Program-made: the position numbers and the translations under genes
Part shown: positions 22,618 to 36,534 of the stretch, piece by piece
How positions within the stretch are numbered: the stretch's first letter is position 1
Layout of the letters: each line of letters opens with the position of its first letter
From: Candidatus Woesearchaeota archaeon
GTDB lineage: Archaea > Nanobdellota > Nanobdellia > Woesearchaeales > JAFGUC01
NCBI GenBank assembly: GCA_016938695.1
Contig: JAFGUC010000043.1
Location: forward strand, 119,213-183,212
DNA length: 64,000 nucleotides
Direction: 5' to 3'
Notes under the pieces: model-generated
The model's input: only the letters and a program-made list of their open reading frames with translations
Databases searched by the model: none
Told to the model about the DNA's origin: nothing

Positions 22618-25600
22618 CGTATTAAACGAGTTTGTAATGCAAAGTCATCTACTAAAGTCTCCCACAAAACCTTGTCGAAACTCGAATCGGAATTAACAAA
22701 ATCATCGTAAAATTTACTTTGAGACGGATCAAATGCATCGTTCACAGTATAATAAATTGTAAAACTAGAGTCATCATGACTACTAAAATCATTCCACGAA
22801 CCTTGATTTGATCTAAACAATTTTATTGAATAATCACTGACTCTATCTTCCTCATATTGTTTAAATTGATCAAATTTAGATGAAATATTTGAAATAACAT
22901 TATCACTAAACTCATCATAAACAACTTTAGTTATTATCTGTTGACCTGAATTAAATCCTGAAACAGCAAAAATGTTTCCAGAATCTGATTTTGATAAATA
23001 CAATTTGTCATAAACACTAAATTCTGCCAAATTCTCATCAACATCAAATGAATTAGAACTAAATACGGATTTGAAAAAATCCAACAATCTAGTCAATACT
23101 CCTCTAGATGATTGAACAAGAGGCATACTAGGTAAACTTCCAGATTTACTGAAAAATAAAATACCTTTTCCAGAATCATAATATGAATATGGTTGCATTT
23201 TATAATCGCCACTTGAAAATAAATCTGACCTACCAATACGGTTAATATCTGTTGAATCAATTACGCCATTACTAAAAGGATCATTATTAAATTCAAGTGC
23301 CATAATAGTCCTATTACCATTTGGATTTTCAGTAGTAACTTCATCAGATGAAACATATCTTAAAACACAACCTTTCCAATTGTATTCTTCAGGATGTTGA
23401 ACAGAAGGAATTGAACCCTTTGTATTAAATACAAAATCAAATCGTCCACAATGCAGAGTATATTCATTGATATCTAAAACATCTGTGAAATTTAATAACT
23501 GTTCAGACATTAAAGCAACTCTTGATTTCCATGAACCAGAATCACAATAATAATCACCTACGTAATAACCATTTGGAATACATTGAACTTCATTGAATCT
23601 ATAAAAATTATACAAAGTAGGAAGATTAGACATAAATCCAGAAACGTATCCATTCAAGAAATTTTGCTGTTCCAAATTATCAAAAGAACTATTATAATTT
23701 GCAGTTGGATTAACTAAACAATCATTTACACGTGGACAATAACCATGAGTTAATCCAGCACCAGTATTAAAATTTCTAATCAAACTTTCTGCCCCAGTTC
23801 CAGAAGGATCTGAATTAGAAGCAGTTTCTTGCCAAGTTTCAACTTTTTCTGATAAAGTCCAAGTTCCATCAATACAACGATAAGAATTATCACCGCTTAC
23901 TAATCGCAACCAATTAGTTGGTTCATCACGTTGATTCTCTACACAAGAATAACCATTCCAACACCAATCATCAGGACAACAACCATCTAAATAAGGTTTA
24001 ACATGATTTTCAATTCCACGTTCGCCAATAGTACTATCTTTTGAATTTAAAGTTCCATCATATAAATATACAGAATTTAAATTATCTACATCTAAGTCTT
24101 CTGCAATAGAAGATAATGTAGTTCTTTTAGAAGAATAAACCTTATCCATTAAATCAACAGCATAATCATTCTTCCAACCTTCGTGTGATGAACAATAATA
24201 AGTTCCTGCAATATCACAACTTGATTTTTGATTTGAACTTGAAATTAAATTGAGTATATTTCCCACTTGAACAGAATTTTCAATTGTAAGACTTAAATCA
24301 CTTGGTAAATCATTAGAACCTAAATTGCAGGAATAAAACTCTCCATTAAGAGCAAGAAGTTTCGAATAACCAACATTAGAACTATCATCATGAACATCAA
24401 CATCAGACATTCTATATGAATCTAAAACTCTCTTACCATTATAAACGAAATTTGAGCTATAACACGCACCAACACCATTAGAAAATTCCCAAGTTTCTTT
24501 AGAATCATCACCACAACATTGCGTATTATTATCTTTTATTAAATCAGAATCTTCAGTAGATTCTAAACCGCCAGCCCAAAATAAACCAGCAGTATTCTCA
24601 CAAGCCCAACCATCATAATCAAAATCTTTATGCCAGGTTCTATCTGAACCACAGAAATAAGACTCTTGAGAATTTCTACCTAAAAATACTCTATCAAATG
24701 CAAAAACATTATAAAAATATGAACCATCAGGTGCTAAAACAACTGGACCCGTCGTATCAACAGTGACATAAATGTTATTTATAGTATAGTCATTATTACA
24801 ACCCTCAAAGGATTCTTTTGATAACTTAAAATTTTGAAATACTCTTGAAAATATATCAGATTGAGGAACATTTGCACAACAAGCATCATCTCTAATACAA
24901 ACTTTTAAATCAGTATTTGGAGAATTCCATGTGAAAAAATCCAAAGCCAAATAATCAAAATCTCCAAAAGTTCGCTTAAACAAAAATTTGTTAGCTAAAG
25001 AATTAGCTATTAACTTTTTGTTATTCAATGAACTACTTGAAGTTCTATACAACAAAGTATTATCAAAACTAGTTTCAGAAAATTTCTCATAATCTGGATC
25101 ATAAACCAAATCTACAACTTGACTTGTTCTTCTAAGTCTACTAAAATAATAATCAGTATCAGACCATTTCTTAGAAGTATCTAAAAAAGTAGGATTCATA
25201 GAATAATAAGTTGGACCAGTACATTCGTATATTTTTGAATCACTACAAAAATACGATTCAATTAAATTAGTATCTCTCCATTCAGCCACTTGTGAAACAG
25301 ATAAAACATTTTTGAATTGATAATAATCGCAACTTGAAACTGAAGAGAAATCATCAGTCGGACAAGCATAAACAACAACATCATAATTTGAACCAACATT
25401 TTGAGGCTTTGAAAATTCAGCATAACCAACATAAATTGGTTTAATCAATCCTGATTCATCAACAGGCGTTGAATAATCATCCAACTGAACTTTAAAAACA
25501 TCATTAACAAAACTTAAATCAGTTTGAACAGTAGAACTACCTGGTTTTCTGAAAACAAAACCAGCATTAGAATTATCAAAAAATGCAATAGAACTTTCAC

Positions 25601-27035
25601 CATTCTTTCTAATACCTATTCTCAAATATCTTTTTGCAGTATCAAATTTAATACCAGATAACAAAAATTCAGATTGCTCATCTATATTAAATAAAACACC
25701 ATCCAAGTAAAGTTCTCCAGACAAACTCTCAGAATCGGAAGGTATATAATTGTCACCATCATCAAATAAAACTAAAACATCATCAGGATTTAAATAATTC
25801 TCATCCATATAATAGCCTACAGAACTTTCACTTGAAACAACATCACCAGATGCGGAACCAATTCTAACAGAATCAATCAAATTAGTCAAATCAGCCAAAG
25901 AAATAGTACTAAAATCAGATACAGAAGAACCTGGCGAATCAGAATCATAAATATCATAAAAATCACTATATGTAGATTGACCATTCAAAGAAGAACTTAC
26001 AACAGAATCAACAACAGTATCACTAATAACATTAACTCCAACATTAGTTGTAAAATCAGAAGCCATAAAATTTTCGCCGTTACAGACTAACCAACCATAA
26101 GAACTAGCCCCCACATAATTAGTTGCAAGTACATCACGATTACCAGTTCCTGAAAACACAGAAGCTAAACCCGATATTTTATCTATCTTAAAAGGATAAT
26201 CTATATTTCTTCTATAAAACACATTTCCAACAGTAGAAGGAATTGATTCTCCTGTAAAAGTTGAAAAAGGAAATCTAGAATCTGCACATAGATATGCATA
26301 GTTAGAATCCTGAGCGATATCATTAACATTAATTGAAATAGTAGTTGAAGATTTACAACAAGAACCTAAACCGGCCGGACAATCAAAATAACCCAAATTT
26401 TGTGTAGCAGGACTTGCTCCATGAAAAGAAACTAAATCACAATTCGAATTAAAATTCAATGGTAAAAATTTTATTTCAGAAAATCTTGAATCAGATACCA
26501 AAGACAAAGTATTTCCTGAAGTATACTCTTGAGAATAAGACGTTCCACGTGAAAACACCCCTTGCGCCAAACCAGTTCCTAGAAGACTAGTAGTTAAGGT
26601 TTGATCAATACAATTTGAGCGATAAACAGAATTTGGATTAACTGTTGCAAATAAATAACGACTAGTTATTATAAAAACCGAAGGTGCAGAACAATCCTTA
26701 CTTCTAACATTTGAAGTAAAAGTTTCACCATTCATGCAAGTACCTAACGTACAAGCTCCAAAATTACAACTAGTAACAGCACTAGAACATGCACTAGTTC
26801 CACAATATTCATAAATACAATCTGAATGACCAGAAATACTTCCAAATGAGCCATAATCAGTACCAGTCTCATCAGCAATACCACAAGATGAATAACTTAC
26901 AGCAGCACAATTAACATCACAAGCTTTACCATACATCCTTGCAGTAGGATCATAAGCAATAACTGAAGAAAGTAAAGAAATAGAAAGTACGACAAAAGCT
27001 AAAAATAGCATATTCCTCTTTTTTGTATTTAGCAA
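22614..27035 (-). CDS. Giant secreted surface protein, 1473 aa; first gene of the operon
   Basis: The track start is a TTG at 27035 with GAGGGG 9 nt upstream, giving MLNTKKRNMLFLAFVVLSISLLSSVIA-YDP, a Sec-type signal. An ATG at 27011 is the alternative start. The protein is S/N/D/Y/C-rich with CCGDD and C.DG.W motifs. Confidence 0.8.
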   Translation of the reverse strand: MLNTKKRNMLFLAFVVLSISLLSSVIAYDPTARMYGKACDVNCAAVSYSSCGIADETGTDYGSFGSISGHSDCIYEYCGTSACSSAVTSCNFGACTLGTCMNGETFTSNVRSKDCSAPSVFIITSRYLFATVNPNSVYRSNCIDQTLTTSLLGTGLAQGVFSRGTSYSQEYTSGNTLSLVSDSRFSEIKFLPLNFNSNCDLVSFHGASPATQNLGYFDCPAGLGSCCKSSTTISINVNDIAQDSNYAYLCADSRFPFSTFTGESIPSTVGNVFYRRNIDYPFKIDKISGLASVFSGTGNRDVLATNYVGASSYGWLVCNGENFMASDFTTNVGVNVISDTVVDSVVSSSLNGQSTYSDFYDIYDSDSPGSSVSDFSTISLADLTNLIDSVRIGSASGDVVSSESSVGYYMDENYLNPDDVLVLFDDGDNYIPSDSESLSGELYLDGVLFNIDEQSEFLLSGIKFDTAKRYLRIGIRKNGESSIAFFDNSNAGFVFRKPGSSTVQTDLSFVNDVFKVQLDDYSTPVDESGLIKPIYVGYAEFSKPQNVGSNYDVVVYACPTDDFSSVSSCDYYQFKNVLSVSQVAEWRDTNLIESYFCSDSKIYECTGPTYYSMNPTFLDTSKKWSDTDYYFSRLRRTSQVVDLVYDPDYEKFSETSFDNTLLYRTSSSSLNNKKLIANSLANKFLFKRTFGDFDYLALDFFTWNSPNTDLKVCIRDDACCANVPQSDIFSRVFQNFKLSKESFEGCNNDYTINNIYVTVDTTGPVVLAPDGSYFYNVFAFDRVFLGRNSQESYFCGSDRTWHKDFDYDGWACENTAGLFWAGGLESTEDSDLIKDNNTQCCGDDSKETWEFSNGVGACYSSNFVYNGKRVLDSYRMSDVDVHDDSSNVGYSKLLALNGEFYSCNLGSNDLPSDLSLTIENSVQVGNILNLISSSNQKSSCDIAGTYYCSSHEGWKNDYAVDLMDKVYSSKRTTLSSIAEDLDVDNLNSVYLYDGTLNSKDSTIGERGIENHVKPYLDGCCPDDWCWNGYSCVENQRDEPTNWLRLVSGDNSYRCIDGTWTLSEKVETWQETASNSDPSGTGAESLIRNFNTGAGLTHGYCPRVNDCLVNPTANYNSSFDNLEQQNFLNGYVSGFMSNLPTLYNFYRFNEVQCIPNGYYVGDYYCDSGSWKSRVALMSEQLLNFTDVLDINEYTLHCGRFDFVFNTKGSIPSVQHPEEYNWKGCVLRYVSSDEVTTENPNGNRTIMALEFNNDPFSNGVIDSTDINRIGRSDLFSSGDYKMQPYSYYDSGKGILFFSKSGSLPSMPLVQSSRGVLTRLLDFFKSVFSSNSFDVDENLAEFSVYDKLYLSKSDSGNIFAVSGFNSGQQIITKVVYDEFSDNVISNISSKFDQFKQYEEDRVSDYSIKLFRSNQGSWNDFSSHDDSSFTIYYTVNDAFDPSQSKFYDDFVNSDSSFDKVLWETLVDDFALQTRLIR

Positions 27036-27171: not shown

Positions 27172-28953
27172 ATGCACGCAACAACAATTTTATTCAGTTT
27201 TCTACTTGCAATAATTCCTGGATACTTAATTAGTTCTAAAAAAAACATAAGTATTTTTGAAAGACTAATAATAGGAATAAGCATAAATATCATATTTGGC
27301 ATTATTATTACAATAATATACAAACTTAACAAAATTAGTATAATTACATATATAATAACAATTACTATCATTGTTTTAATCAAAAATTTTAATCTAATAA
27401 AAAAATTCAACATTAAAAAAATATTAAAACAAAAAACATACACACTAGCGATATTACTAATTATAGTAATAAGCTCACTGCCAGTAATTCTAATTCACAC
27501 CAATTACACTAAAGAAATCAATAGTTTATATCCTAGTCCACACATTATCAACTCAACAGAATATCGTTTACCCTTCCATGGAGATGAATGGACTCATATT
27601 GCCCAAACACAATACATCAAAGACAATGGAAAAATAGCACTACAGAATCCATACTTTAATACAAACAACACAAGAAAAAAATTAACAGGCATTTTCCAAT
27701 CAGGATTTCATATAATGCTTGCAGAATTTTTTATATTATCAAATTCAAAGATATTAGAAAACTACTGGATCCTTCCATTCCTAGCAAACATTATTTTTGG
27801 AATTATCGCACATTTAATAATAATAAACATATTAAAAAACAAAGAAAAAAAATTCAAAAAATCTATTCTATTAGCAACAGCCATTTGTACATTAACATAC
27901 TCAATACAAGCAAATTCAATTAATTTAATCGCAAATTGGTTCTTGACACCAGTTAATATAGGCATTCTCATTGCTCTTGCAAACATCTTGTTCTACTTAA
28001 AAAACAACAAAACACCAGTTATAATCACTTTAATAGCATTATTAACTATATACGCTCCAATTGCAATAGTAATAACAACAGGATATATAATCAACTGGTT
28101 GATAACAACAAAATTAACAAAACGAAATATAATAATCATAGCAACATCAACAATAATCATTGCAAGTATAGTTTTTTCTAAACTATACCCGGAAATATTT
28201 CAAACAATAATTAAATATCTAATATATCGATCTGAAGAATACATCAACACAGAAATAAAATACAACATCATAAAATTAATTGGATTAAATATAATTGCAA
28301 TTATTTTTGGAATAAAATTAATAACAGATTGTAAAAATAAAAAATACAAAATTTTTTTAATAATACCAATTATTACAATAATAAACATATTACTATTTCA
28401 ATTTACAAACACAACAATTCTACTAAGATATCAAAGAAATATATTTTTATTAAATTCAATATGTTCAATATTGATTGGATTAGGAATATTCAAAATAATA
28501 ACCAAAATAAATAATAATCACAATATTCGAAAAATAATCTCAATAACACTAGGAATAATAATATTAATCAACATCACATATTCAACAATAAATTATCAAA
28601 AAATAAAAACTAAAGACATATTATACCACATCATAGAAATAGAAGATTATAGTTTTTTATTAAATACAAAAAAAGTAATTGGAGAAAAAAACACAATATT
28701 AACAGGAACAATCCCCGCAATGACCATATATCCTACAATTAATAATTATGTTTTAACAATTGCAGGGGGCAATCTTGATCACGGGGACAAAACAATCCCA
28801 AATACATTTATCAAATTAAACTGTACTGAAAAAATGAAATTCATAACAAAACGAAAAATTGATTACATCTGGACATCATTTACATTTGACTGCCCACAAG
28901 CAAAGATAATATACAACGAAAATAATAATTATATCTATAAATTTACAAAATGA
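27172..28953 (+). CDS. Polytopic membrane protein, 593 aa; possible GT-C-fold glycosyltransferase
   Basis: It has more than 10 predicted TM helices, an early extracytoplasmic loop with an acidic motif (FHGDEWTHIAQTQYIKD) and a soluble C-terminal domain of about 110 aa. This architecture resembles ArnT/PMT/AglB-type enzymes. No WWDYG motif is present, so it is not a canonical AglB. The gene is translationally coupled (ATGA) to the prepilin peptidase gene. Confidence 0.6.
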   Translation: MHATTILFSFLLAIIPGYLISSKKNISIFERLIIGISINIIFGIIITIIYKLNKISIITYIITITIIVLIKNFNLIKKFNIKKILKQKTYTLAILLIIVISSLPVILIHTNYTKEINSLYPSPHIINSTEYRLPFHGDEWTHIAQTQYIKDNGKIALQNPYFNTNNTRKKLTGIFQSGFHIMLAEFFILSNSKILENYWILPFLANIIFGIIAHLIIINILKNKEKKFKKSILLATAICTLTYSIQANSINLIANWFLTPVNIGILIALANILFYLKNNKTPVIITLIALLTIYAPIAIVITTGYIINWLITTKLTKRNIIIIATSTIIIASIVFSKLYPEIFQTIIKYLIYRSEEYINTEIKYNIIKLIGLNIIAIIFGIKLITDCKNKKYKIFLIIPIITIINILLFQFTNTTILLRYQRNIFLLNSICSILIGLGIFKIITKINNNHNIRKIISITLGIIILINITYSTINYQKIKTKDILYHIIEIEDYSFLLNTKKVIGEKNTILTGTIPAMTIYPTINNYVLTIAGGNLDHGDKTIPNTFIKLNCTEKMKFITKRKIDYIWTSFTFDCPQAKIIYNENNNYIYKFTK

Positions 28954-30068
28954 ACATCGATTTTTTTTACATAGGATGCTTGGTAATATTTGGAATAATA
29001 TCATCATTTACAGATATAAGATCAAAAAAAATAAGAAATTCAACAATTGTTCTTGCATTAATAAGTAAAATAATTCTAGATACAATCGCAATACTCGCAA
29101 ATCAGTACTCGAGTGAAAACATATTATCAAGTTACAAAAATATGCTCTTTTTTTTTGGAATTACAATAGTACTATATATTTTCAATTTAATGAATGCTGG
29201 CGATGTTAAATACACAACAATAATTACAGGCCTAATACCTATTAGATTTCACATACAATCAATGTTTGGTGAAAGAGTTTTAACGTTCATATTTTTTTCA
29301 ATGGGAATTATTTTTATAGGAGACATCATAACTCAAATAAGAAAAAAACAATTTTTGAAAAGTATCAAAAAAACACTAAATCTTAAAAAAATAATTTTAC
29401 AAATCATAACAATATTTCCAGCATATTTAATTTTAATTTTCATTGCACAAAAATTCGGAACAAACATAAACACAGTTCTCAGAATAATGATAACTTATAT
29501 TGCAATGGATTTCATAAGAAAATTAAAACCTAATTATCAAAAAATTGTTCTTGTAATCACAACTATTATTGGAATACTATTAAATTTTAATATAATATCT
29601 GATATTACATTCTGGAAAGATTACATAATATTCACAACAATATATATGACGTTCAGAATACTAATGAGTAATTTAGTCGAAAATAGCAATTATAAAATAA
29701 AAAATATAATCCATCTAAAACCAACCGATACACCTTATGAGAATATAAAATATGAAATAGAATTAATACATTCTAAAAAAATAAAACTTGAAAAAATAAA
29801 TTACAAAATATTTACAAATCCAACATACACTTTTGAAAATCATATATATCACTTCTTCAGAATCAAATCATTCAAAAAAGTAAGAGAATTTCCAATATCA
29901 ACAAATCATGAATTTGTTTTTGATAATAAAAAAATAATCGACTCTAACACAAGATTTAAATTAGAAAAACTAGAAATACATAAATTAAAAATACATAAAA
30001 AAATTGCAATCTGCCCATTTATCAATTTAGGAATAATATTATTTATTATAAAAAATCTATTTTTTTAA
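28950..30068 (+). CDS. A24-family prepilin/preflagellin peptidase (PibD/FlaK/EppA-like) with a C-terminal extension of about 130 aa
   Basis: The two catalytic Asp motifs have the expected spacing: SSFTD(22)IRSKKIRN and NAGD(85)VKYT (the GxGD-like motif). The core has multiple TM helices. The C-terminal part is K-rich and soluble. Confidence 0.75.
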   Translation: MNIDFFYIGCLVIFGIISSFTDIRSKKIRNSTIVLALISKIILDTIAILANQYSSENILSSYKNMLFFFGITIVLYIFNLMNAGDVKYTTIITGLIPIRFHIQSMFGERVLTFIFFSMGIIFIGDIITQIRKKQFLKSIKKTLNLKKIILQIITIFPAYLILIFIAQKFGTNINTVLRIMITYIAMDFIRKLKPNYQKIVLVITTIIGILLNFNIISDITFWKDYIIFTTIYMTFRILMSNLVENSNYKIKNIIHLKPTDTPYENIKYEIELIHSKKIKLEKINYKIFTNPTYTFENHIYHFFRIKSFKKVREFPISTNHEFVFDNKKIIDSNTRFKLEKLEIHKLKIHKKIAICPFINLGIILFIIKNLFF

Positions 30069-30989
30069 AATTGGACTAAACTCAGAATAACCATATAAAT
30101 CAACATATTCTTCCCAAGGACCTTCACATGCTTGATTCATAATGCAAGAATTACAAAAATCAAATTTCTTTTTTATTTGAATCCTAACACTATTCCAATC
30201 AAATTCTGATGATTCAACATTCTTGACATAATACTTTTCACCTTGAGAAAAAACTTGATTAAACATATAGTCTTGTTCTCGTAAAAAGCAAAAAGGAAAC
30301 GTTTCAATAGATAAAGAAACACCATTAAGTTTAGCATAATCAAAAACAGAATATAAAACATCTTTCAAATCAGAATAACGTGGAATAACAACATCACGAT
30401 ATTTCCAGGCATTTCCTAAACCATGTGGAAACGATAGTACTGTTCTTGAAACCCCAATATCAGATAGAATTTTAATAATATCTAGTAAATCAGACATATT
30501 TTTCTTAGATATTACAACCTTCCCAACAACATATTTATTTAATGATACAAGATTTTGTATTCCTTTAATAGTTTGATTAAATGAACCATTTTTTTGAGTT
30601 ATTGAATCATGAATTTGAGAATTAGAACCATGTACCGCAATTACAAAACCAGAAACATTCAAATCCTTAAATTTATCACTAAACTCAGGATAATAAAATG
30701 CTCGCCCATTAGTCTGAATAAAAACAGTCATACCTAGAGAATTTATTAATTTAATCAAATCAACTATATCTCGTCTAAAAGTTGGCTCTCCACCAGTTAA
30801 AGTAACTGCGTCAAATCCTTGAGAAGGCAAACCTATTATTTGATTTTTTAATTCATCATAAGTTAAATCAACAGGGATATTTTTATTTTTACATTCTAAA
30901 TAATGATCTTTAATAACACAATGAACACAATTATTATTACAACTATAACCAACCTTTAAATCATAACAATTCATCTTTGACGCATCCAA
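30057..30989 (-). CDS. hxsC: Radical SAM enzyme, HxsC-like
   Basis: It carries a CX3CX2C motif (GYSCNNNCVHC) and GGEPT. It is the last gene of an operon with an HxsB-like rSAM/SPASM enzyme, HxsD-like proteins and a His-x-Ser-containing protein. The track start at 30989 is a TTG. The ATG at 30974 forms an ATGA overlap with the hxsB-like stop and is the likelier start. Confidence 0.65.
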   Translation of the reverse strand: MDASKMNCYDLKVGYSCNNNCVHCVIKDHYLECKNKNIPVDLTYDELKNQIIGLPSQGFDAVTLTGGEPTFRRDIVDLIKLINSLGMTVFIQTNGRAFYYPEFSDKFKDLNVSGFVIAVHGSNSQIHDSITQKNGSFNQTIKGIQNLVSLNKYVVGKVVISKKNMSDLLDIIKILSDIGVSRTVLSFPHGLGNAWKYRDVVIPRYSDLKDVLYSVFDYAKLNGVSLSIETFPFCFLREQDYMFNQVFSQGEKYYVKNVESSEFDWNSVRIQIKKKFDFCNSCIMNQACEGPWEEYVDLYGYSEFSPILKK

Positions 30990-32446
30990 TTCATAAAAAT
31001 ATTAGAAATTTCAGTATCGTTTAACAATTTATCAAAAACATAATCAAAAACATACTTAAAAAATTTACATTTTGAATTCTTAGATAGTTTTGGAATAATA
31101 TTACCATCCTCTGCATAATTAATAACTGGACAAGTTCCACAATAAGGTTTATACACACAAGCACTACAAGCATAATTGTCAAGTATTGATGAATTAGACA
31201 AATTTATTGCTTTCTCAGAAGTTACAATATCATTATACGTATGCGTCTTAACATTACCTAACTTGAATTCTTCAAAAGCCCTACCTTCGTCACAAGAATA
31301 GATATCACCATTATAATTATAAGCTAACTGACCAAAAACAATGCCACAAGGACTTCTAAAATCCAAAAATCCAGGATCTCTACCACTCAAAATTTTAAAC
31401 AAAACCAATTTAATATAACGTTCTTCAAAATAAATTCCACTTTTATTTAATTCAATGATATAATCAACAGATTTTTTCCAGAATTCTAAAAACTCATCAA
31501 TAGTATAACCAATTTCACCCCAAGTTTTCTCTGCAAATCCAAGTTTATTTATATATTTTAATTGAATTGAATTTTGACCCATTCTAAGATATTCATCAAT
31601 AATTTCTCTTGGTTTAGATAAACTTTTACGTGTTGTAACCATCAAATAATTTGCTGTAAGACCATACTCTTTTTTCAAAATTTCAGACGTTGCTAAAACA
31701 GAATCATATGTAGAATCATATTTAACATTATTTAACATATTCAATCCATTGAAATGCCCATCAAAACATCTATTATTATCATGTAATTCTTTAAATCCAT
31801 CCAAAGAAGAATTAATTGAAATTTTATGCTCATCAATAAACTCAACAATATCTCTATCTAATAAAGTTAAATTTGTAACCAAACAAAAACGTATTTCTTT
31901 TTTTATTTCTCTATTTTTTGCTTCAGAATACAAAACAATATTTTTGAATAATTTCTTATTCAACATAGAATCTCCACCTTGAAATTCAATTGTCAATGTT
32001 TTTGAAGGAGATTGAAAAATGAAATCAACTGTTGATTTATAGACTTCATCATTCATATCGAAATCAGAAGAGTCATCTACACGCCTAACAGAACTATGAC
32101 AATAAACACATTTGAAATTACATCGTAACGTTGGAACAATAATATGTAAAGAAGTAGGGTTAAACAGACTTTGAAATTTATTCAAATACAAATTTTTAAC
32201 AGAATTAAAATTGCGATTAAGTAAAATAAATCCATATTTTTCCAAATCACTAAATAATGAGGATGATTGGTCTATTGTTCCACTACGTAATTGTGTAAAT
32301 TCCGAATCATCTAAAAAAATCCATGAACCAGAATCATTAGTTAATAGATATTTCTCACCAAATTTTTTAAACAAAAAGTAGTTAAGAATATAATCCATTT
32401 TCTCAAAATTTAAAAAAAAACTTTTTACCATTTTTCTATAAAACAT
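30971..32446 (-). CDS. hxsB: Radical SAM/SPASM-domain maturase, HxsB-like
   Basis: It carries CX3CX2C (LRCNFKCVYCHSS) and a C-terminal Cys cluster (CSACVYKPYCGTCPV...CKFF) typical of SPASM domains. The size is 475-491 aa. The internal ATG at 32398 (MDYILNYFLFKKFGEKYLL) is an alternative start. Confidence 0.7.
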   Translation of the reverse strand: MFYRKMVKSFFLNFEKMDYILNYFLFKKFGEKYLLTNDSGSWIFLDDSEFTQLRSGTIDQSSSLFSDLEKYGFILLNRNFNSVKNLYLNKFQSLFNPTSLHIIVPTLRCNFKCVYCHSSVRRVDDSSDFDMNDEVYKSTVDFIFQSPSKTLTIEFQGGDSMLNKKLFKNIVLYSEAKNREIKKEIRFCLVTNLTLLDRDIVEFIDEHKISINSSLDGFKELHDNNRCFDGHFNGLNMLNNVKYDSTYDSVLATSEILKKEYGLTANYLMVTTRKSLSKPREIIDEYLRMGQNSIQLKYINKLGFAEKTWGEIGYTIDEFLEFWKKSVDYIIELNKSGIYFEERYIKLVLFKILSGRDPGFLDFRSPCGIVFGQLAYNYNGDIYSCDEGRAFEEFKLGNVKTHTYNDIVTSEKAINLSNSSILDNYACSACVYKPYCGTCPVINYAEDGNIIPKLSKNSKCKFFKYVFDYVFDKLLNDTEISNIFMNWMRQR

Positions 32447-32652
32447 TCATTTAATGCAAGATTACAAAAATTGAGTACATCTATTTTGAAATCCAAATCA
32501 GAACCATTAAATCTAACAATAACAGATTCTAAATCCTCATCAACAGTAATAAAATCAAACTGAGCAGCAAGATTAATCAATTTTAAAGACGAATAATAAT
32601 ACTTAGAAAATCTAACTAATGCACCATCACCTTGAAAATTAACTAAAGACAT
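32425..32652 (-). CDS. Small protein (75 aa), possible second HxsD-like protein
   Basis: I trimmed the track ORF 32425..32766 to the ATG at 32652 to remove the overlap with the upstream gene. The sequence is MSLVNFQGDGALVRFSKYYY...DFKIDVLNFCNLALNECFIEKW. It shows weak resemblance to the HxsD motif region. Confidence 0.4.
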   Translation of the reverse strand: MSLVNFQGDGALVRFSKYYYSSLKLINLAAQFDFITVDEDLESVIVRFNGSDLDFKIDVLNFCNLALNECFIEKW

Positions 32653-32665
32653 CGTATTTAAGATT

Positions 32666-33085
32666 CTAAGAATCGTCCTCCCATTCTTCAAAAATTTTTT
32701 CAACATCATCAATATCTGAGTGTGAATCATTATTTGGAGAAGGAATTTTTGATTCTGAAGTTGCATTCGCTAATAGATTAGTCATCAAAAAATCTCGAAA
32801 CTTCTTAGAATCCTCTGAAAAAACAAAATAACTCGCATAAGTTAAAAGTTCATCGTTAAACAATCTTATCAACTCACCAAGCCCTACTGAATCATCTAAA
32901 GGTCTTATTTCAACCTTAATAACTTCATCAGGATTACCACCCAAGATAACCGATGCTTTATCCATAAGAATATATGCTGCTTGATAAACTACCTTCAAAG
33001 GATATATCTTTGGATTAATATCGAATAAAACATAATCGTTGCTAGAATCATAAAAGATATTTCTAAGACCGTTATAACTTTCCAT
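32666..33085 (-). CDS. hxsD: HxsD-like protein, 139 aa
   Basis: The segment IRLFNDELLTYASY resembles the LLNDYxLRE signature after which the HxsD family (TIGR03976) was originally named. The gene sits between the HxS-containing gene and the paired rSAM genes. Confidence 0.5.
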   Translation of the reverse strand: MESYNGLRNIFYDSSNDYVLFDINPKIYPLKVVYQAAYILMDKASVILGGNPDEVIKVEIRPLDDSVGLGELIRLFNDELLTYASYFVFSEDSKKFRDFLMTNLLANATSESKIPSPNNDSHSDIDDVEKIFEEWEDDS

Positions 33086-33138
33086 AACAGAAAAAATAAA
33101 ACAGCAATTTATATATTTTTCTTAAGAAAAAGAAAACT

Positions 33139-33642
33139 TTACCAACCTAGACCTGAATCTCCACCAGTACTAACTGAACCACTATTACGCACCCTATTAA
33201 GGCCTTCAGAATAAGAATGACTGTGTGATACAGATAAAGAGTTACTAGCTTCAGAATAAGCATAAGAATCATTATGAGTATAACAAGCCACATTAAAGTC
33301 AACTGTAATAGACTGAGACTCAGAACAACTCGCATGACCAAACCATCCACCAGAACCATGACAACTCGCATGAGTATCCCCACTATAAGGATAATAAGTT
33401 CCATCTTTACAAAACGCCAAGTTTGAAGAAGTACTCATTTTTGCTTTAATAGCCTCAGTTGAAACAGTAATAGCATCTACAGAATTACTACCGTGACCAG
33501 CATAAACAGAATTATCAGAAAATATAAATTTCATAAAACCTACAGACAAAAGAAATCCTTTCAAAACATCTTCTTTCTTAAGAAAACCATCCTCATTTCT
33601 CAAAAAATCAACAACTTTTTTTTTAACTGAAGGAATTCTCAT
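33139..33642 (-). CDS. hxsA: His/Ser/Cys-rich protein with His-Xaa-Ser motifs, HxsA-like putative substrate (167 aa)
   Basis: The central and C-terminal parts contain HGS, HAS, HGS and HAS triplets (AGHGSNS; THASCHGSGGWFGHASCSES) plus SVSHSHSYS. An N-terminal hydrophobic stretch is present. The start overlaps the upstream Cys-rich protein gene (ATGA). Confidence 0.6.
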   Translation of the reverse strand: MRIPSVKKKVVDFLRNEDGFLKKEDVLKGFLLSVGFMKFIFSDNSVYAGHGSNSVDAITVSTEAIKAKMSTSSNLAFCKDGTYYPYSGDTHASCHGSGGWFGHASCSESQSITVDFNVACYTHNDSYAYSEASNSLSVSHSHSYSEGLNRVRNSGSVSTGGDSGLGW

Positions 33643-34670
33643 TTTTGAAACATCTCCACCAAAGTAAGACAGTCTGTTGAAGTCATGACACCATTATCTT
33701 CAAAATCAGCACAAATATCATTCAACGTACCTTGATTTAAATATTTTGCGTTACACAAATAATCATAAGTTTTAGTAGATGAAACATCAAACGAAGAATC
33801 GTCACAAGGATCCTTTACATATTGAGTAGCATAACAAATTTCTTTTGCGGAACTTTCGAGCATACTAGCACATACAGCATTCTTATTAAAAACAGATGCA
33901 ACACTAAGAAACATAACAAATTTAGAAGAATCATCCAAACCATAAGAATCTTTAGCAACAGTATCTTTAATGAAGGACTCACATTTATCGGAATCTACTG
34001 AATCTTCACAAGTTAAATTGTTATCTTTAAAGCAATTAAGAACTCTTAAAGAATCATCAATCAACATACAATCATCACCAGACGATATCAAACCATCAAT
34101 ACAATTAAACCTCACTTCAGAATCCGCAATATCAGAACAATAACTTATACCGCCAACGGTTTGAGCATAAACCAAAAGACAGTAATCATTTGTACAAAAT
34201 GAAGAATCCTTTGATGCATTAGCAAGTGTCATCTCACAAAAAAAGTCACCAGAACAACTAAAAGAATCCATTTCATTGTACAAAACTTTAATACAATACG
34301 AATTACTTAAACCGATACACAAACTAGAATCTTTTCTCGACATAGAATAATTAACAAGACACTGAGAAAAAACAGCATCAGAATATCCACCAAGAGATAA
34401 AAGTTCACAAGGATTTACTTCAAGCAAATTACCAGTACATAAACCTCTTAAATCTTCATCGGAAATCTGCGAACATACAGATTTGTCTTTCAAAAAATAA
34501 AGACTCCTAAACGCACAAGCAGTAGAGTCAACTCCAGTACAATCAACATTTACAGTTATATCAACAACTGGTTGATTTCTAAACAGAAAAAAAACTGCAA
34601 CTATAATTACAACAAAAGCCAAAAGGTAAAATTTATATTCAAAAACCTTCTTTTGTTTAGTACGCCGCAT
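33639..34670 (-). CDS. Membrane-anchored Cys-rich protein, 343 aa; first gene of the Hxs-like operon
   Basis: The N-terminal TM helix is FYLLAFVVIIVAVFFLF. It is followed by many Cys residues in loosely repeating D/S-x-x-x-C contexts. Confidence 0.7.
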   Translation of the reverse strand: MRRTKQKKVFEYKFYLLAFVVIIVAVFFLFRNQPVVDITVNVDCTGVDSTACAFRSLYFLKDKSVCSQISDEDLRGLCTGNLLEVNPCELLSLGGYSDAVFSQCLVNYSMSRKDSSLCIGLSNSYCIKVLYNEMDSFSCSGDFFCEMTLANASKDSSFCTNDYCLLVYAQTVGGISYCSDIADSEVRFNCIDGLISSGDDCMLIDDSLRVLNCFKDNNLTCEDSVDSDKCESFIKDTVAKDSYGLDDSSKFVMFLSVASVFNKNAVCASMLESSAKEICYATQYVKDPCDDSSFDVSSTKTYDYLCNAKYLNQGTLNDICADFEDNGVMTSTDCLTLVEMFQK

Positions 34671-34724: not shown

Positions 34725-35696
34725 ATGGGACTTAACCAAATATTTCTAACCAGAGAATGTAAACGAAATTGTAATTTTTGCTTTGCTAAAGAAGTTAATA
34801 AATTCAAAGACTACACCAGTTATGAAGACTACACAAAATATCTTGAGATTCTGAAAAAACACACAAAATACAAAAGAATTCATCTTCTAGGGGGAGAACC
34901 ACTTCTTAATCCAAATTTTGACAAAATATTAAAAACAACATTAGAAAACGAATTTAAAATTACAATATCGACAAGCGGAATTGAAAACTTTGGAAAAATC
35001 AAACACATTCTAAATGAAAAAACAGAATTTTCATTTACATATCCTTTAAACTCAGAAAAAAAAGAAAAAATTATGAACAACATAAAAGAATTATCCAATC
35101 AAGGAATTAAAATAACACCAAGCATAGTAATAGAAAATTATCAATTCAATAAAGAATTAATTGAAGAATTAAAAAATTTAAAAGTAGACACAGTAATAAT
35201 AACACCACCACTACCAAATTTTGAACATTCAAATACATACAAAAAAGAATTTGATAAAGAATATTCTCAAAACCTGCTAAAAATTATAAACGAAATATTA
35301 AATAATAATATTAAGATAAGGCAAGATTGTTCAATGCCAATATGCGTCTTTAACAAACAAGATGCATTAAAATTAATCAAAAAAGGTTTTAATTTTGGGA
35401 AATGCACAATCAAAATTGGAAACGAAAATGGAATTTTTGTTGGACCTAACCTAGACATATTCTTATGTCCTATATTTTCAAACCCTATTGGAAATCTTAA
35501 AAAAAATTCAATCGAAACAATTCTAAAAAGAAAAAAAGAATTAGAAAAAATACTCTGCTTTGGATTCAATGAAAAATGCAAATCATGCATTTTATTCAAA
35601 AACCAAATTTGTATTCCTTGTGCATCCTATACATCATATAAAAATAAAACAAAAATAAATGAATATCTAAAAATCATAAAAAATGAACAAAATTAA
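34725..35696 (+). CDS. Radical SAM enzyme with C-terminal Cys cluster (SPASM/twitch-like), 323 aa
   Basis: It carries CX3CX2C (ECKRNCNFCFA), GGEPLL, and the C-terminal cluster CPIF...CFGFNEKCKSCILFKNQICIPC. Confidence 0.75.
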   Translation: MGLNQIFLTRECKRNCNFCFAKEVNKFKDYTSYEDYTKYLEILKKHTKYKRIHLLGGEPLLNPNFDKILKTTLENEFKITISTSGIENFGKIKHILNEKTEFSFTYPLNSEKKEKIMNNIKELSNQGIKITPSIVIENYQFNKELIEELKNLKVDTVIITPPLPNFEHSNTYKKEFDKEYSQNLLKIINEILNNNIKIRQDCSMPICVFNKQDALKLIKKGFNFGKCTIKIGNENGIFVGPNLDIFLCPIFSNPIGNLKKNSIETILKRKKELEKILCFGFNEKCKSCILFKNQICIPCASYTSYKNKTKINEYLKIIKNEQN

Positions 35697-36534
35697 AGAA
35701 GAATTACAAAAAGCATTGAATGCTAATACCATTTTGATAAAGCAAAAACTTATTGGTAGTTGTAAAAACTACATCATACAAACAGATCAAAAAAACTTAT
35801 TTCTAAAAGCATATTACAATAGTCACAATAGAAAATTCACAGAAATAATAAAAACCAAGGCCCATGAAGAAATAAGAGAGAAATGGATTAAAAATAAAGT
35901 AAACATTCCAACACCTCTAAAAAGCATAATAATCAACAAAGTACTCTTTGAAGTATATGAGATTACAAATAACAAAAGAATAGAACTAACTGAAATCAAT
36001 ATCAAAAAAATAATTGAAAACATAAAAAAAATTCAAACAACAAGAACAGAATACATAAACGACAAATTCAAAAACGATATTTTAACATTCCCAAAAGTCC
36101 AAAACATAAAAAATGAATCGAAAATCAATACCATAATTAATGAACTTAAAAAAAATATCGACAATATAGAATTTTGCGTATGCCACGGCGATCTAACATT
36201 AAAAAATATTTACTCTGAAAGAAATAAAATATTATTTCGAGATTTTGAAAATATTGATTATCTACCAAAAATATACGATTTATCAAAATTGATAATTTCT
36301 GCTAAATTAGCGAATTATTCTGAAGAAATAATCCAGAAAATAATAGATGAGTATACAACAGAAATTAATCCTAACAACATAGAAATAGAAAATATTGAAA
36401 ACTTGAACATATTTATTTTAATAACACAAATATTGGCATATCAACAACAGCAAAAAAATAAAGAAGCAGATGAATTAATCAGAAATTTAAATAAAATAAT
36501 TGAAAAAATCAATTGCAAGAGTAATCAACACTAA
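35683..36534 (+). CDS. APH/choline-kinase-fold small-molecule or peptide kinase, 283 aa
   Basis: The catalytic loop is CHGDLTLKNIY, followed by FRDFENIDY (the D-[FW]-E metal-binding motif). It overlaps the upstream rSAM gene by 14 nt. Confidence 0.65.
   Translation: MNKIKEELQKALNANTILIKQKLIGSCKNYIIQTDQKNLFLKAYYNSHNRKFTEIIKTKAHEEIREKWIKNKVNIPTPLKSIIINKVLFEVYEITNNKRIELTEINIKKIIENIKKIQTTRTEYINDKFKNDILTFPKVQNIKNESKINTIINELKKNIDNIEFCVCHGDLTLKNIYSERNKILFRDFENIDYLPKIYDLSKLIISAKLANYSEEIIQKIIDEYTTEINPNNIEIENIENLNIFILITQILAYQQQQKNKEADELIRNLNKIIEKINCKSNQH

What the first reader, a model, noticed from the sequence alone, without database searches (positions are those of the whole stretch)
30057..33642. 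A His-Xaa-Ser (Hxs) radical-SAM maturation system in an archaeal surface-gene island
The gene order on the minus strand is as follows:
- a 167-aa His/Ser/Cys-rich protein with HGS, HAS, HGS and HAS triplets and SHSHSYS;
- a 139-aa protein with an LFNDELLTY segment resembling the HxsD signature LLNDYxLRE;
- a 75-aa possible second HxsD-like protein;
- a rSAM/SPASM enzyme of about 480 aa;
- a second rSAM enzyme of about 305 aa.

This matches the four-component HxsA/D/B/C system defined only by comparative genomics (TIGR03979/03976/03978/03977). The chemistry and biological role of that system remain unknown. As far as I know, Hxs systems are described mainly from bacteria. A copy inside a DPANN-like archaeal surface island, with few and degenerate HxS repeats and many Cys in the putative substrate, would be an unusual variant.
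Basis: partly seen in the sequence, partly recalled or inferred. Interest (0 to 1): 0.65.

Follow-up and report, generated by a model that had tools for sequence, protein, structure and literature searches.

The report
Archaeal variant of Hxs maturation system
A small archaeon from freshwater sediment carries a divergent, enlarged version of the bacterial "Hxs" gene set, in which radical-SAM enzymes modify a secreted His/Ser-rich protein; the bacterial version was shown in 2026 to block phage DNA entry, and the archaeal version has never been studied.

Summary
Five co-oriented minus-strand genes lie at 30057-33642, and all described motifs are present.

How each gene scores:
- The ~480-aa rSAM/SPASM enzyme passes the curated HxsB model (443 bits, cutoff 370).
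- The 139-aa protein is HxsD-like but below cutoff (33 vs 50 bits, E 6e-8). It also has a precomputed Pfam HxsD hit.
- The 75-aa protein is a divergent "HxsD-like" (NF038315-type) protein (hhalign probability 91%).
- The ~305-aa rSAM hits HxsC4/HxsC best, but far below their cutoffs.
- The 167-aa protein carries the conserved HxsA3/A4-type leader (27 bits, E 6e-8 with a profile built without it). Its core is long, acidic and Cys-containing, with four scattered HxS triplets rather than a repeat array.

- The role of the canonical system is no longer unknown; it is an antiphage defence (Li et al. 2026).
- Archaeal copies are not rare. The closest relatives form a large DPANN clade already labelled HxsB in public records.
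- The system has more than four parts. It also includes a conserved A24-type aspartyl peptidase, a Cys-rich membrane protein paired with the precursor, and a third rSAM plus a kinase.

Verdict: a new variant of a known kind, of moderate interest.

The parts
33139..33642 (-). Precursor/substrate protein 'A' (167 aa), in three segments. Residues 1-28: basic conserved leader (IPSVKKKVVDFLRNEDGFLKKEDVLKG). Residues 29-48: short hydrophobic signal-like stretch ending VYA|G. Residues 49-167: acidic His/Ser/Cys-rich core (pI 5.7).
   Evidence: A leader profile built from 37 other loci, without this protein, scores it 27.2 bits (E 5.6e-8). It is the only hit among 345 window ORFs. NF038309 HxsA3 scores 18 bits against a cutoff of 65, over leader residues 4-59 only. 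An exhaustive HMMER search finds only two full-length homologues, P0242 and P0243 (31-32% identity). Invariant residues in that three-way alignment: C78, H91-x-S93, W100, H103, C120-Y121-x-H123-x-D125, H140-x-H142-S143-Y144, W167.
32666..33085 (-). HxsD-like protein (139 aa): an HxsD domain (residues about 24-109, motif LFNDELLTY) plus an acidic C-terminal tail (..KIFEEWEDDS).
   Evidence: TIGR03976 HxsD scores 33 bits, E 5.8e-8, covering model positions 2-88 of 90; the cutoff is 50. A precomputed Pfam PF27806 HxsD hit lies on the identical gene in L059/L060. Homologues sit immediately upstream of X-HxsB in 40+ loci.
32425..32652 (-). Small HxsD-related protein 'X' (75 aa). The start is uncertain: a 94-aa version has been called elsewhere.
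   Evidence: A 60-85-aa gene fills the D-B gap in almost every related locus. Two of these genes pass NF038315 'HxsD-like protein' (66 and 59 bits, cutoff 41). Window X itself is not significant against a plain HMM. hhalign of window X plus L053 X against 23 family members gives probability 90.8%, E 1.2e-6, over 63 columns.
30971..32446 (-). HxsB: radical SAM/SPASM maturase (491-aa ORF; the likely start is at 32398, giving 475 aa).
   Evidence: TIGR03978 scores 443 bits against a cutoff of 370; the runner-up family scores 129 bits. Pfam Radical_SAM and SPASM are both above threshold. CX3CX2C lies at 109-116, with seven SPASM Cys. It shares 44-59% identity with DPANN proteins named HxsB and about 33% with proteobacterial plasmid HxsB.
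30057..30989 (-). HxsC-like radical SAM enzyme (310-aa ORF; the likely start is at 30974, giving 305 aa). It lacks the ~100-aa N-terminal domain of canonical HxsC.
   Evidence: Its best NCBIfam hits are NF038332 HxsC4 (129 bits, full length, cutoff 500) and TIGR03977 HxsC (89 bits, cutoff 268). It shares 26% identity over 200 aa with Aeromonas HxsC (E 1e-10). It directly abuts the HxsB stop. Homologues follow HxsB in the closest loci. Public records name them only 'radical SAM protein'.
28950..30068 (+). A24-family (prepilin-peptidase-like) polytopic aspartyl protease (372 aa), convergent with C. It is the proposed leader peptidase.
   Evidence: Pfam PF01478 Peptidase_A24 scores 30.1 bits against a cutoff of 26.5. 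Family members lie beside the Hxs genes in 18 of 23 archaeal and 10 of 33 bacterial loci. D22, N30, G84-D85-x-K87 and P97 are invariant in 26 of 26 sequences.
33639..34670 (-). Cys-rich (24 Cys) single-pass membrane protein (343 aa). Its stop overlaps the A start codon (ATGA).
   Evidence: It has no Pfam or NCBIfam family. Homologous genes lie immediately upstream of both A homologues (L062: E 5e-8 over about 250 aa; L063: E 2e-9). The N-terminal TM segment is at about residues 8-40.
34725..35696 (+). Third radical SAM enzyme with a SPASM-like Cys-rich C-terminus (323 aa), divergent from the A operon.
   Evidence: Pfam Radical_SAM scores 61 bits; SPASM scores 19 bits, just below its 21.5 cutoff. 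It is collinear with the N-terminal half of a 705-aa rSAM-SPASM-APH fusion encoded in the Hxs cluster of L054 (E 8e-7).
35683..36534 (+). APH/CotS-like protein kinase (283 aa), overlapping the end of the third rSAM gene.
   Evidence: Weak hits to CotS, APH(3'), EcKL and APH, all below cutoffs. The catalytic loop HGDLTLKN and DFE187 are present. It is collinear with the C-terminal half of the L054 fusion (E 4e-6). Related kinase domains are fused to HxsB, to an rSAM/SPASM enzyme or to a glycosyltransferase in 7 DPANN Hxs loci.
33086..33138 (-). A-D intergenic spacer: a T-rich run (33124-33138) followed by AAAAATATATAAA (33108-33120), which ends 23 nt upstream of the D start codon.
   Evidence: Read directly from the sequence. 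Reading it as an archaeal oligo-T terminator plus a TATA box is an inference and was not tested.

Best explanation
This is a DPANN-archaeal variant of the His-Xaa-Ser (Hxs) radical-SAM protein-maturation system. It matures a secreted or cell-surface protein.

Proposed mechanism:
1. Protein A is made with a conserved basic leader (shown).
2. In the cytoplasm the leader directs A to HxsB (an rSAM/SPASM enzyme) and to the HxsC-like rSAM, which works with the two small HxsD-type proteins (D and X). This is inferred from the HxsC-HxsD complex of the E. coli system.
3. The enzymes install one or more covalent modifications on conserved His/Ser positions of the core. The candidate sites are H91-A-S93 and the invariant H140-S-H142-S-Y144 (inferred).
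4. The third rSAM and the kinase add further modifications, plausibly Ser phosphorylation (inferred).
5. The dedicated A24-type aspartyl protease removes the leader at the conserved K-(x)-G|hydrophobic junction (residue 28/29), or signal peptidase cuts at VYA|G (residue 48/49) (inferred).
6. The mature product is displayed at the cell envelope, together with the co-transcribed Cys-rich membrane protein.

By analogy with the only characterised Hxs system, the most likely role is an envelope-level barrier against invading (viral) DNA or particles. That role is the least secure step.
For: Identity of the parts:
- HxsB is above the curated cutoff.
- D is HxsD-like.
- X is HxsD-related.
- C's best matches are HxsC4 and HxsC, and it abuts HxsB.
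- A carries the HxsA3/A4-type leader.
- In Elusimicrobia and Patescibacteria the same leader precedes textbook (HGS)n arrays with 7-41 HxS triplets next to HxsD-X-HxsB. This ties the leader to Hxs chemistry.

Conserved synteny:
- The order D-X-B-C with an adjacent A24 peptidase recurs in the closest relatives (L053, L054, L056).
- The A24 peptidase is present in 28 of 56 loci, with catalytic Asp residues invariant.
- The Cys-rich gene plus A pair is conserved in both A homologues, and one of them lies in an Hxs cluster.
- The rSAM plus kinase pair matches a fused gene inside the L054 Hxs cluster.

Basis for the mechanism:
[quoted passage not shown] HxsC binds HxsD. The system blocks phage DNA entry (PMC13128918).

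Expression:
- Two small metatranscriptome contigs match HxsB and the third rSAM. Depth is low, and DNA carry-over is not excluded.
Against: - Only HxsB meets a curated cutoff. C, D, A and X all fall below theirs.
- A has no tandem HxS array and no peptidoglycan-binding domain.
- A's core is net acidic (pI 5.7), whereas the canonical repeat region has pI 10.9. The proposed electrostatic DNA-binding mode of canonical HxsA therefore does not transfer directly.
- DPANN archaea have no peptidoglycan periplasm.
- The gene order is A-D-X-B-C, not D-B-C-A.
- PADLOC (2023) has no model for the system, and the locus has no recognisable defence-island neighbours. The neighbours are giant surface proteins and glycosyltransferases.
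- The cleavage site, the modified residues and the kinase substrate are all untested.
Confidence: 0.65

Rival explanations
1. The same enzymology serves a different purpose. The matured A protein is a structural or adhesive surface component, for example a type-IV-pilin-like subunit or an anchor used by the episymbiotic archaeon to attach to its host. It would not be an antiviral effector.
For: - A dedicated prepilin-type (A24) peptidase is present, and the leader ends in K-G followed by a hydrophobic stretch, like class III signal peptides.
- The locus is embedded among giant surface proteins, glycosyltransferases and an ABC-2 exporter.
- L054 has an archaeosortase-like gene and a 2798-aa protein next to its cassette.
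- A's acidic core argues against DNA binding.
Against: - The hydrophobic stretch after K-G is only about 12-13 residues, shorter than pilin N-terminal helices, and gives no 19-residue TM call.
- Most leaders end in an AxA-like signal-peptidase site.
- The leader is about 28 residues long, which is longer than usual for class III signals (my own knowledge).
- The only experimental datum for any Hxs system is defence (PMC13128918).
Confidence: 0.2
2. A is a RiPP-like secreted product, such as an antimicrobial or signalling peptide or a His/Cys-rich metal-binding protein. The rSAM enzymes form cross-links (for example His-to-Cbeta cyclophanes or thioethers), as in triceptides and sactipeptides.
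For: - HxsB's next-best families are all SPASM peptide maturases: PapB, anSME, nif11, DynA and SCIFF.
- rSAM/SPASM cyclophane synthases are known to act on His-x-x motifs, for example HtkB, which forms a His C2 to Lys Cbeta link (PMC11499958 abstract).
- The core is rich in His and Cys, with invariant Cys and His positions.
- Relatives carry B12-rSAM methyltransferases and other tailoring genes typical of RiPP clusters.
Against: - The core is about 120 residues, and no transporter/protease module typical of bacteriocins is present.
- The precursor is single-copy.
- The canonical HxsA acts as a protein effector rather than a small peptide (PMC13128918).
Confidence: 0.12
3. The resemblance is incidental: a generic SPASM enzyme sits next to unrelated small ORFs, and there is no Hxs-type system.
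For: - C, D, A and X all fall below curated cutoffs.
- The HxS count is only marginally non-random (p about 0.02).
Against: - HxsB is 73 bits above its equivalog cutoff.
- Four independent Hxs-specific profiles (HxsD, HxsD_rel, the HxsA3 leader, HxsC4/HxsC) are the top or only hits for the four neighbouring genes.
- The arrangement is conserved in dozens of loci.
Confidence: 0.03

Closest known systems
Canonical HXS antiphage system of Pseudomonadota (hxsD-hxsB-hxsC-hxsA; Haft & Basu 2011; Li et al. 2026, PMC13128918). Example: Aeromonas salmonicida pAsa4, locus L061.
   Same: - An HxsB rSAM/SPASM enzyme is followed directly by a second rSAM.
- A small HxsD-family partner protein is present.
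- The substrate has an N-terminal export or processing signal and His/Ser-rich sequence.
- The window's HxsB shares about 33% identity with plasmid HxsB over 96-98% of its length.
   Different: - Gene order is A-D-X-B-C rather than D-B-C-A (99.6% of canonical systems).
- D is 139 aa with an acidic tail, against 96 aa, and gives no pairwise BLAST hit to canonical HxsD.
- There is an extra HxsD-related gene (X).
- C is 305 aa and lacks the ~100-aa N-terminal domain of the 401-aa HxsC.
- The substrate has no HRS-type basic repeat array and no peptidoglycan-binding domain. It is acidic and contains Cys.
- There are additional parts: an A24 peptidase, a Cys-rich membrane protein, a third rSAM and a kinase.
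- The host is an archaeon without peptidoglycan.
NCBIfam 'variant' Hxs families: HxsA3 (NF038309), HxsA4 (NF038313), HxsD-like protein (NF038315) and HxsC4 (NF038332). They are catalogued but, as far as I could find, not described in a paper.
   Same: - The leader of A is of the HxsA3/A4 type.
- X-family genes of relatives pass NF038315.
- C aligns end to end with HxsC4.
- Precursors of relatives pass or approach the A3/A4 cutoffs (L011 scores 59 bits against the HxsA4 cutoff of 55).
   Different: - The window's own A, X and C all score below these cutoffs (18 vs 65; no hit; 129 vs 500).
- Its core is about 120 residues with conserved Cys and H-x-H-S-Y, not an (HGS)n array.
- No NCBIfam model matches the associated A24 peptidase or the Cys-rich protein.
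Type IV prepilin / archaeal class III signal peptidases (Peptidase A24: PilD, FlaK, PibD)
   Same: - Pfam A24 is above threshold.
- Both catalytic Asp residues are invariant, the second in a G-D-x-K motif.
- Relatives also show weak Arc_PepC hits.
- The putative substrate has K-(x)-G followed by hydrophobic residues.
   Different: - The gene is linked to rSAM maturases rather than to pilus or archaellum genes.
- The substrate leader is unusually long (about 28 residues) and conserved in sequence.
- The hydrophobic segment is short.
- Cleavage has not been shown.
rSAM/SPASM three-residue cyclophane synthases (triceptide maturases, e.g. HtkB, HaaB, XyeB)
   Same: They are SPASM-type rSAM enzymes that act on leader-bearing precursors at aromatic-x-x motifs, including His (PMC11499958).
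   Different: - They belong to a different enzyme family. GrrM/OscB and YhhB score only 44-45 bits against the window's HxsB.
- The Hxs modification reported so far is +8 Da, not the -2 Da expected for a cross-link (PMC13128918).

Membership tests
Hxs system (NCBIfam TIGR03976-03979) | HxsB equivalog: TIGR03978 score at or above 370 bits | tested here: met
   443 bits, E 1.2e-132, covering model positions 2-466 of 466. The next family (PapB) scores 129 bits.
Hxs system (NCBIfam TIGR03976-03979) | HxsC equivalog: TIGR03977 at or above 267.9 bits (or the HxsC4 exception model NF038332 at or above 500) | tested here: not met
   89.4 bits and 129.1 bits. These are the two best hits, but heme b synthase AhbD follows at 85 bits. 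Identity to Aeromonas HxsC is 26%, and the N-terminal domain is absent.
Hxs system (NCBIfam TIGR03976-03979) | HxsD: TIGR03976 at or above 50 bits; LLNDYxLRE-type motif | tested here: inconclusive
   33 bits (E 5.8e-8). It is the only NCBIfam hit and covers nearly the full model, but is below cutoff. A precomputed Pfam PF27806 HxsD hit is listed unmarked, i.e. E at most 1e-5. The motif LFNDELLTY keeps L, N, D and L of LLNDYxLRE.
Hxs system (NCBIfam TIGR03976-03979) | HxsA: TIGR03979 at or above 121.65 bits, or variant models A2, A3 or A4 above their cutoffs | tested here: not met
   There is no TIGR03979 hit. HxsA3 scores 18.2 bits against a cutoff of 65, over the leader only.
Hxs system (NCBIfam TIGR03976-03979) | Tandem His-Xaa-Ser repeats in the substrate | tested here: not met
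   There are four scattered HxS triplets (residues 50, 91, 95, 103), with shuffle p about 0.02. Only H91-x-S93 is invariant among the three homologues.
Hxs system (Li et al. 2026 description) | HxsB and HxsC adjacent; gene order D-B-C-A | tested here: inconclusive
   B-C adjacency is met (the genes abut). The order is A-D-X-B-C, not D-B-C-A (PMC13128918).
Hxs system (Li et al. 2026 description) | Substrate has a signal peptide and a peptidoglycan-binding domain | tested here: not met
   A short signal-like hydrophobic stretch is present (residues 29-41). No Pfam domain of any kind is found in A.
Hxs system (Li et al. 2026 description) | Confers antiviral defence by blocking genome entry; rSAM-dependent modification and processing of HxsA | not testable with these tools
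   Needs expression, mass spectrometry and infection assays.
HxsD-like protein (NF038315) | Model score at or above 41 bits; position between hxsD and hxsB | tested here: inconclusive
   Window X gives no NCBIfam hit and only about 2 bits against my own family HMM. hhalign gives 90.8% probability, E 1.2e-6, over the full length. Its position and size are as in 30+ loci.
Peptidase A24 (PF01478) | Pfam gathering score; two catalytic Asp residues, the second in a GxGD-type motif | tested here: met
   30.1 bits against 26.5. D22 and G84-D85-V-K87 are invariant in 26 of 26 family members. Proteolytic activity was not tested.
Radical SAM / SPASM (PF04055, PF13186) | CX3CX2C motif and the Cys-rich auxiliary-cluster domain | tested here: met
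   B: both Pfam domains are above threshold. C and the third rSAM: Radical_SAM is above threshold, with C-terminal Cys motifs present but SPASM absent or just below threshold.

The most novel reading that the evidence does not exclude
DPANN archaea, and in simpler form Elusimicrobia and Patescibacteria, would carry a distinct and undescribed branch of Hxs systems.

In this branch:
- A prepilin-like, sequence-conserved leader is recognised by the rSAM machinery and then removed by a dedicated A24 aspartyl protease.
- The substrate has evolved from an (HGS)n array into a folded, disulfide- or metal-bearing acidic domain with an invariant H-x-H-S-Y site.
- Extra rSAM and kinase modules decorate the substrate.

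Such a system would be the first envelope-level, rSAM-matured antiviral (or host-attachment) effector known in archaea. It would also identify the missing protease step of Hxs maturation.
Probability: 0.25. Interest if true: 0.75.

Novelty: new variant of a known kind. Interest (0 to 1): 0.5.

Why it matters
The Hxs system went from 'defined only by comparative genomics' to a demonstrated antiphage barrier only in 2026, and that study reported 99.7% of systems in Pseudomonadota.

This locus and its relatives add three things:
- The HxsB family has a large second home in ultra-small archaea and bacteria (DPANN, Patescibacteria, Elusimicrobia), with a different substrate class.
- A dedicated A24-type peptidase is associated with it. 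This is a concrete candidate for the unexplained N-terminal processing step.
- In DPANN there are also kinase and extra rSAM modules.

If the function carries over, this would be a rare example of an envelope-level antiviral mechanism in archaea that depend on cell-surface contact for life. If it does not, the contrast between an acidic Cys-rich core and basic HRS repeats would help to define what the rSAM modification is for. The conserved H-x-H-S-Y and H-x-S positions give specific residues to test.

Tried and rejected
- **Word-index homologue search with A:** it found only A itself. The exhaustive HMMER search was needed to find two homologues.
- **AlphaFold2 of A with the 3-sequence alignment:** mean pLDDT 37.7, pTM 0.21, so unusable. 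No fold search was attempted.
- **Core-motif profile from DPANN precursors:** the profile (H-x-N-..-hydrophobic-x-A-T-H-x-H) was built from 10 DPANN precursors. It ranks A first among window ORFs but is not significant (3.3 bits, E 1.8). The link holds only transitively, through P0242 (14 bits, E 8e-4), so I do not claim the motif for A on that profile alone.
- **Plain HMM of the X family against window X:** not significant. Profile-profile comparison was needed.
- **Pairwise BLAST of D against canonical HxsD:** no hit.
- **PADLOC-DB 2023:** no Hxs model. There are only weak viperin-type rSAM hits, which I regard as generic rSAM similarity and not as evidence for a pVip system.
- **Cys-rich protein against the 411-aa gene upstream of A in L054, and the 593-aa membrane protein against the L054 archaeosortase-like gene:** no significant similarity.
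- **tRNA and Rfam scans of the window:** nothing found.
- **Literature searches for archaeal or DPANN Hxs systems:** nothing beyond Li et al. 2026 and mentions of Haft & Basu.
- **Metatranscriptome read-laying:** only two short low-depth contigs matched. This is suggestive of expression, not proof.

Full report
**1. Observation**

The five minus-strand ORFs are present as described:
- A: 33139-33642, 167 aa.
- D: 32666-33085, 139 aa.
- X: a small ORF. Taken from its internal ATG it is 75 aa (32425-32652) and fits between D and B without overlap.
- B: 30971-32446. The mechanical ORF is 491 aa; public gene calls give 475-486 aa.
- C: 30057-30989, 310 aa, or 305 aa from the ATG at 30974.

A contains HGS(50), HAS(91), HGS(95), HAS(103) and SHSHSYS(138-144). 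Four of seven His residues in HxS triplets is only marginally more than shuffling gives (p about 0.02). The triplets alone would therefore not carry the claim. The sequence itself is shown.

**2. Family tests**

Scores against NCBIfam with curated cutoffs:
- B scores 443 bits on TIGR03978 HxsB (cutoff 370). The next family, PapB, scores 129.
- C hits HxsC4 best (129 bits, cutoff 500) and then HxsC (89 bits, cutoff 268). AhbD follows closely at 85.
- D has a single hit, HxsD (33 bits, E 5.8e-8, model positions 2-88 of 90, cutoff 50).
- A has a single weak hit, HxsA3 (18 bits, cutoff 65), confined to residues 4-59.
- X has none.

Other evidence:
- Pfam confirms Radical_SAM plus SPASM in B and Radical_SAM in C.
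- The collection's precomputed Pfam hits list PF27806 HxsD for the identical D gene.
- Motifs are intact: CX3CX2C in B, C and the third rSAM; seven SPASM Cys in B; CX2CX5C in C.

**3. Relatives and context**

The closest HxsB relatives (44-59% identity) are overwhelmingly Woesearchaeota/Nanoarchaeota MAGs, and many are already named HxsB by NCBI or JGI. Elusimicrobia, Patescibacteria and a few Firmicutes follow at 35-42%. Proteobacterial plasmid HxsB is about 33% identical.

I extracted ORFs from 56 distinct loci and searched them with the window's proteins and with profiles built from them.

*The D-X-B(-C) block.*
- It is conserved across these loci.
- A 60-85-aa gene fills the D-B gap almost everywhere.
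- Two of these small genes pass NF038315 'HxsD-like protein'.
- The window's X and that of its nearest relative, L053, are divergent. A plain HMM does not score them significantly. hhalign gives 90.8% probability, E 1.2e-6, over 63 columns.

*A leader-bearing precursor family.*
- Its consensus is ..P.IKK.I..FL.SEEGKISK..I.K.G, then about 12-18 hydrophobic residues, then an AxA-like site.
- It is encoded in 37 of the 56 loci.
- In the bacterial loci the core is a textbook (HGS)n array with 7-41 HxS triplets.
- In archaeal loci the core ranges from short arrays to 150-240-aa proteins rich in Cys, His, Ser and Asp, with 0-9 HxS triplets.
- A profile of 37 leaders built without the window protein scores A at 27.2 bits (E 5.6e-8). 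It is the only hit among 345 window ORFs.

*An A24-type peptidase family.*
- The window gene is at 28950-30068 (Pfam PF01478, 30.1 bits, cutoff 26.5).
- Family members lie beside the cassette in 18 of 23 archaeal and 10 of 33 bacterial loci.
- D22, N30, G84-D85-x-K87 and P97 are invariant in 26 of 26 sequences.

*APH-like kinase domains.*
- They occur in 7 DPANN loci, fused to HxsB, to an rSAM/SPASM enzyme or to a glycosyltransferase.
- The window's divergent gene pair, the third rSAM (34725-35696) and the kinase (35683-36534), is collinear with the two halves of the 705-aa fusion in L054 (E 8e-7 and 4e-6).

**4. The substrate**

- The word-index search found no homologue of A.
- The exhaustive HMMER search found two: P0242 and P0243, 31-32% identity over the full length, with E 1.8e-10 and 6.9e-8 against 1.8 billion proteins.
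- Invariant residues in the three-way alignment are C78, H91-x-S93, W100, H103, C120-Y121-x-H123-x-D125, H140-x-H142-S143-Y144 and the C-terminal Trp.
- Both homologues are preceded by a homologue of the window's Cys-rich membrane protein (33639-34670; E 5e-8 and 2e-9). In the window that gene overlaps A's start codon.
- P0243 lies in a cluster that continues through five tailoring-type genes into HxsD, X and HxsB. Those genes are a B12-rSAM, DUF5838, a methyltransferase, a 303-aa protein and an rSAM.
- Other DPANN precursors share a C-terminal module, H-x-N-[SD]-hydrophobic...hydrophobic-x-[AV]-[TSE]-H-x-H. P0242 matches it (14 bits, E 8e-4). A itself does not match significantly, so the link for A is transitive.
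- A's core is acidic (pI 5.7; K+R 5, D+E 10). The canonical repeat region has pI 10.9.
- AlphaFold2 gave no usable model.

**5. What is known**

Haft & Basu (2011) defined the system by comparative genomics; I cite this through. Li et al. 2026 (PMC13128918) reported the following:
- The E. coli HXS system is a broad antiphage defence that blocks DNA entry.
- HxsA has a signal peptide, five basic HxS repeats and a peptidoglycan-binding domain.
- HxsB, HxsC and HxsD are all required for a non-canonical N-terminal cleavage, for export and for activity.
- A +8 Da modification maps to SHRSS.
- HxsC binds HxsD.
- 99.7% of systems found through HxsA are in Pseudomonadota, and 99.6% have the order D-B-C-A.

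A canonical operon for comparison is Aeromonas pAsa4, with D 96 aa, B 484 aa, C 401 aa and A 192 aa. NCBIfam also holds variant models (HxsA2, A3, A4, HxsD-like, HxsC4). I found no paper on these variant models or on archaeal Hxs.

**6. Interpretation**

The locus is a bona fide member of the HxsB-centred family of maturation systems. It belongs to the A3/A4-leader branch, which is shared by DPANN archaea, Elusimicrobia and Patescibacteria.

Within that branch it belongs to a DPANN sub-type with these features:
- a long, acidic, Cys-containing substrate;
- a paired Cys-rich membrane protein;
- an HxsC-like enzyme without the canonical N-terminal domain;
- a separate rSAM plus kinase pair.

Shown here: family membership of B; homology of D, X, C and the leader of A; conserved synteny; intact catalytic motifs.

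Inferred: which residues are modified; that the A24 protein removes the leader at K-G|F; that the kinase acts on A; that the product is displayed at the envelope.

The defence role is an analogy to a distant system whose substrate properties differ, so I give it about 0.3. An adhesion or surface-structure role fits the genomic neighbourhood of giant surface proteins and glycosylation genes about as well.

Expression evidence is limited to two small, low-depth metatranscriptome contigs in B and the third rSAM. The sequence comes from freshwater and sediment metagenomes.

**7. Verdict**

- Novelty: a new variant of a known kind. Parts of the variant are catalogued in NCBIfam. As far as I could find, the A24 peptidase link, the long-core substrates with the H-x-H-S-Y site, the Cys-rich partner and the kinase modules are undescribed.
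- Interest: 0.5.

Noticed in passing
window 27172-28953 (+): A 593-aa polytopic membrane protein (about 12 or more hydrophobic segments) with no Pfam or NCBIfam family. Its stop overlaps the start of the A24-like peptidase gene, so the two are probably co-translated. It is not similar to the archaeosortase-like gene that occupies the equivalent place in L054.
   Followed up: partly
window 48942-60929 (-) and 46784-48964 (-): A 3995-aa ORF carries a HerA/DUF87-type ATPase domain near its C-terminus (residues about 3438-3535). A 726-aa HerA/FtsK-like ATPase gene follows directly. A giant protein with an embedded HerA-type NTPase is unusual.
   Followed up: no
window 44001-44792 (+): A DUF5838 (PF19156) gene. 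The same family sits between the A homologue and HxsD in the related cluster L063 (2517-3374). It may be a displaced accessory gene of the system.
   Followed up: no
window 10291-19317 (-), 19378-27035 (-), 6693-10250 (-): A run of giant ORFs (3008, 1079, 1473 and 1185 aa). The 3008-aa protein has CarboxypepD_reg and Big_13 repeats. The others have no family. Giant proteins also flank the Hxs cassettes of L054 and L056.
   Followed up: partly
window 32666-32760 (-), and D homologues in L004, L008, L009, L012, L017, L053: HxsD-like proteins of this branch end in an acidic tail with a recurring motif: (I/L)x(P/E)(W/E)EE(K/W), e.g. PWEEKYG or IFEEWEDDS. Canonical 96-aa HxsD has no such tail. It may be a docking peptide.
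   Followed up: no
P0005, P0018, P0019, P0022, P0044, P0045; L054 13325-15442; L056 12344-14938: APH-type kinase domains are fused to HxsB (~790 aa), to an rSAM/SPASM enzyme (705 aa) or to a GT1 glycosyltransferase (864 aa). This occurs only in DPANN Hxs loci and points to phosphorylation as part of this branch's chemistry.
   Followed up: partly
L054 8624-9979 and 16540-18006; L063 1206-2510: Related DPANN cassettes contain a B12-binding rSAM (PhpK-like methyltransferase type). L054 also has an exosortase/archaeosortase-family gene next to the A24 peptidase gene.
   Followed up: no
window 33639-34670 (-): The Cys-rich protein shows a recurring (K)D(K/S)S(V/L/F)C spacing (residues 61, 113, 154) and has 24 Cys in all. 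This suggests short internal repeats stabilised by disulfides or metal.
   Followed up: no
window 1-64000: GC skew is negative in every 2-kb bin (-0.02 to -0.33). It is weakest where genes run on the + strand (38-44 kb), so it probably reflects coding-strand composition. GC drops to 0.22-0.27 across 28-46 kb, against about 0.30 elsewhere.
   Followed up: no
window 62903-63598 (+): An RluA-type pseudouridine synthase. Its best relatives mix Woesearchaeota with Firmicutes (Paenibacillus, Clostridia) at 44-57% identity, which looks like a gene of bacterial type in a DPANN genome.
   Followed up: partly
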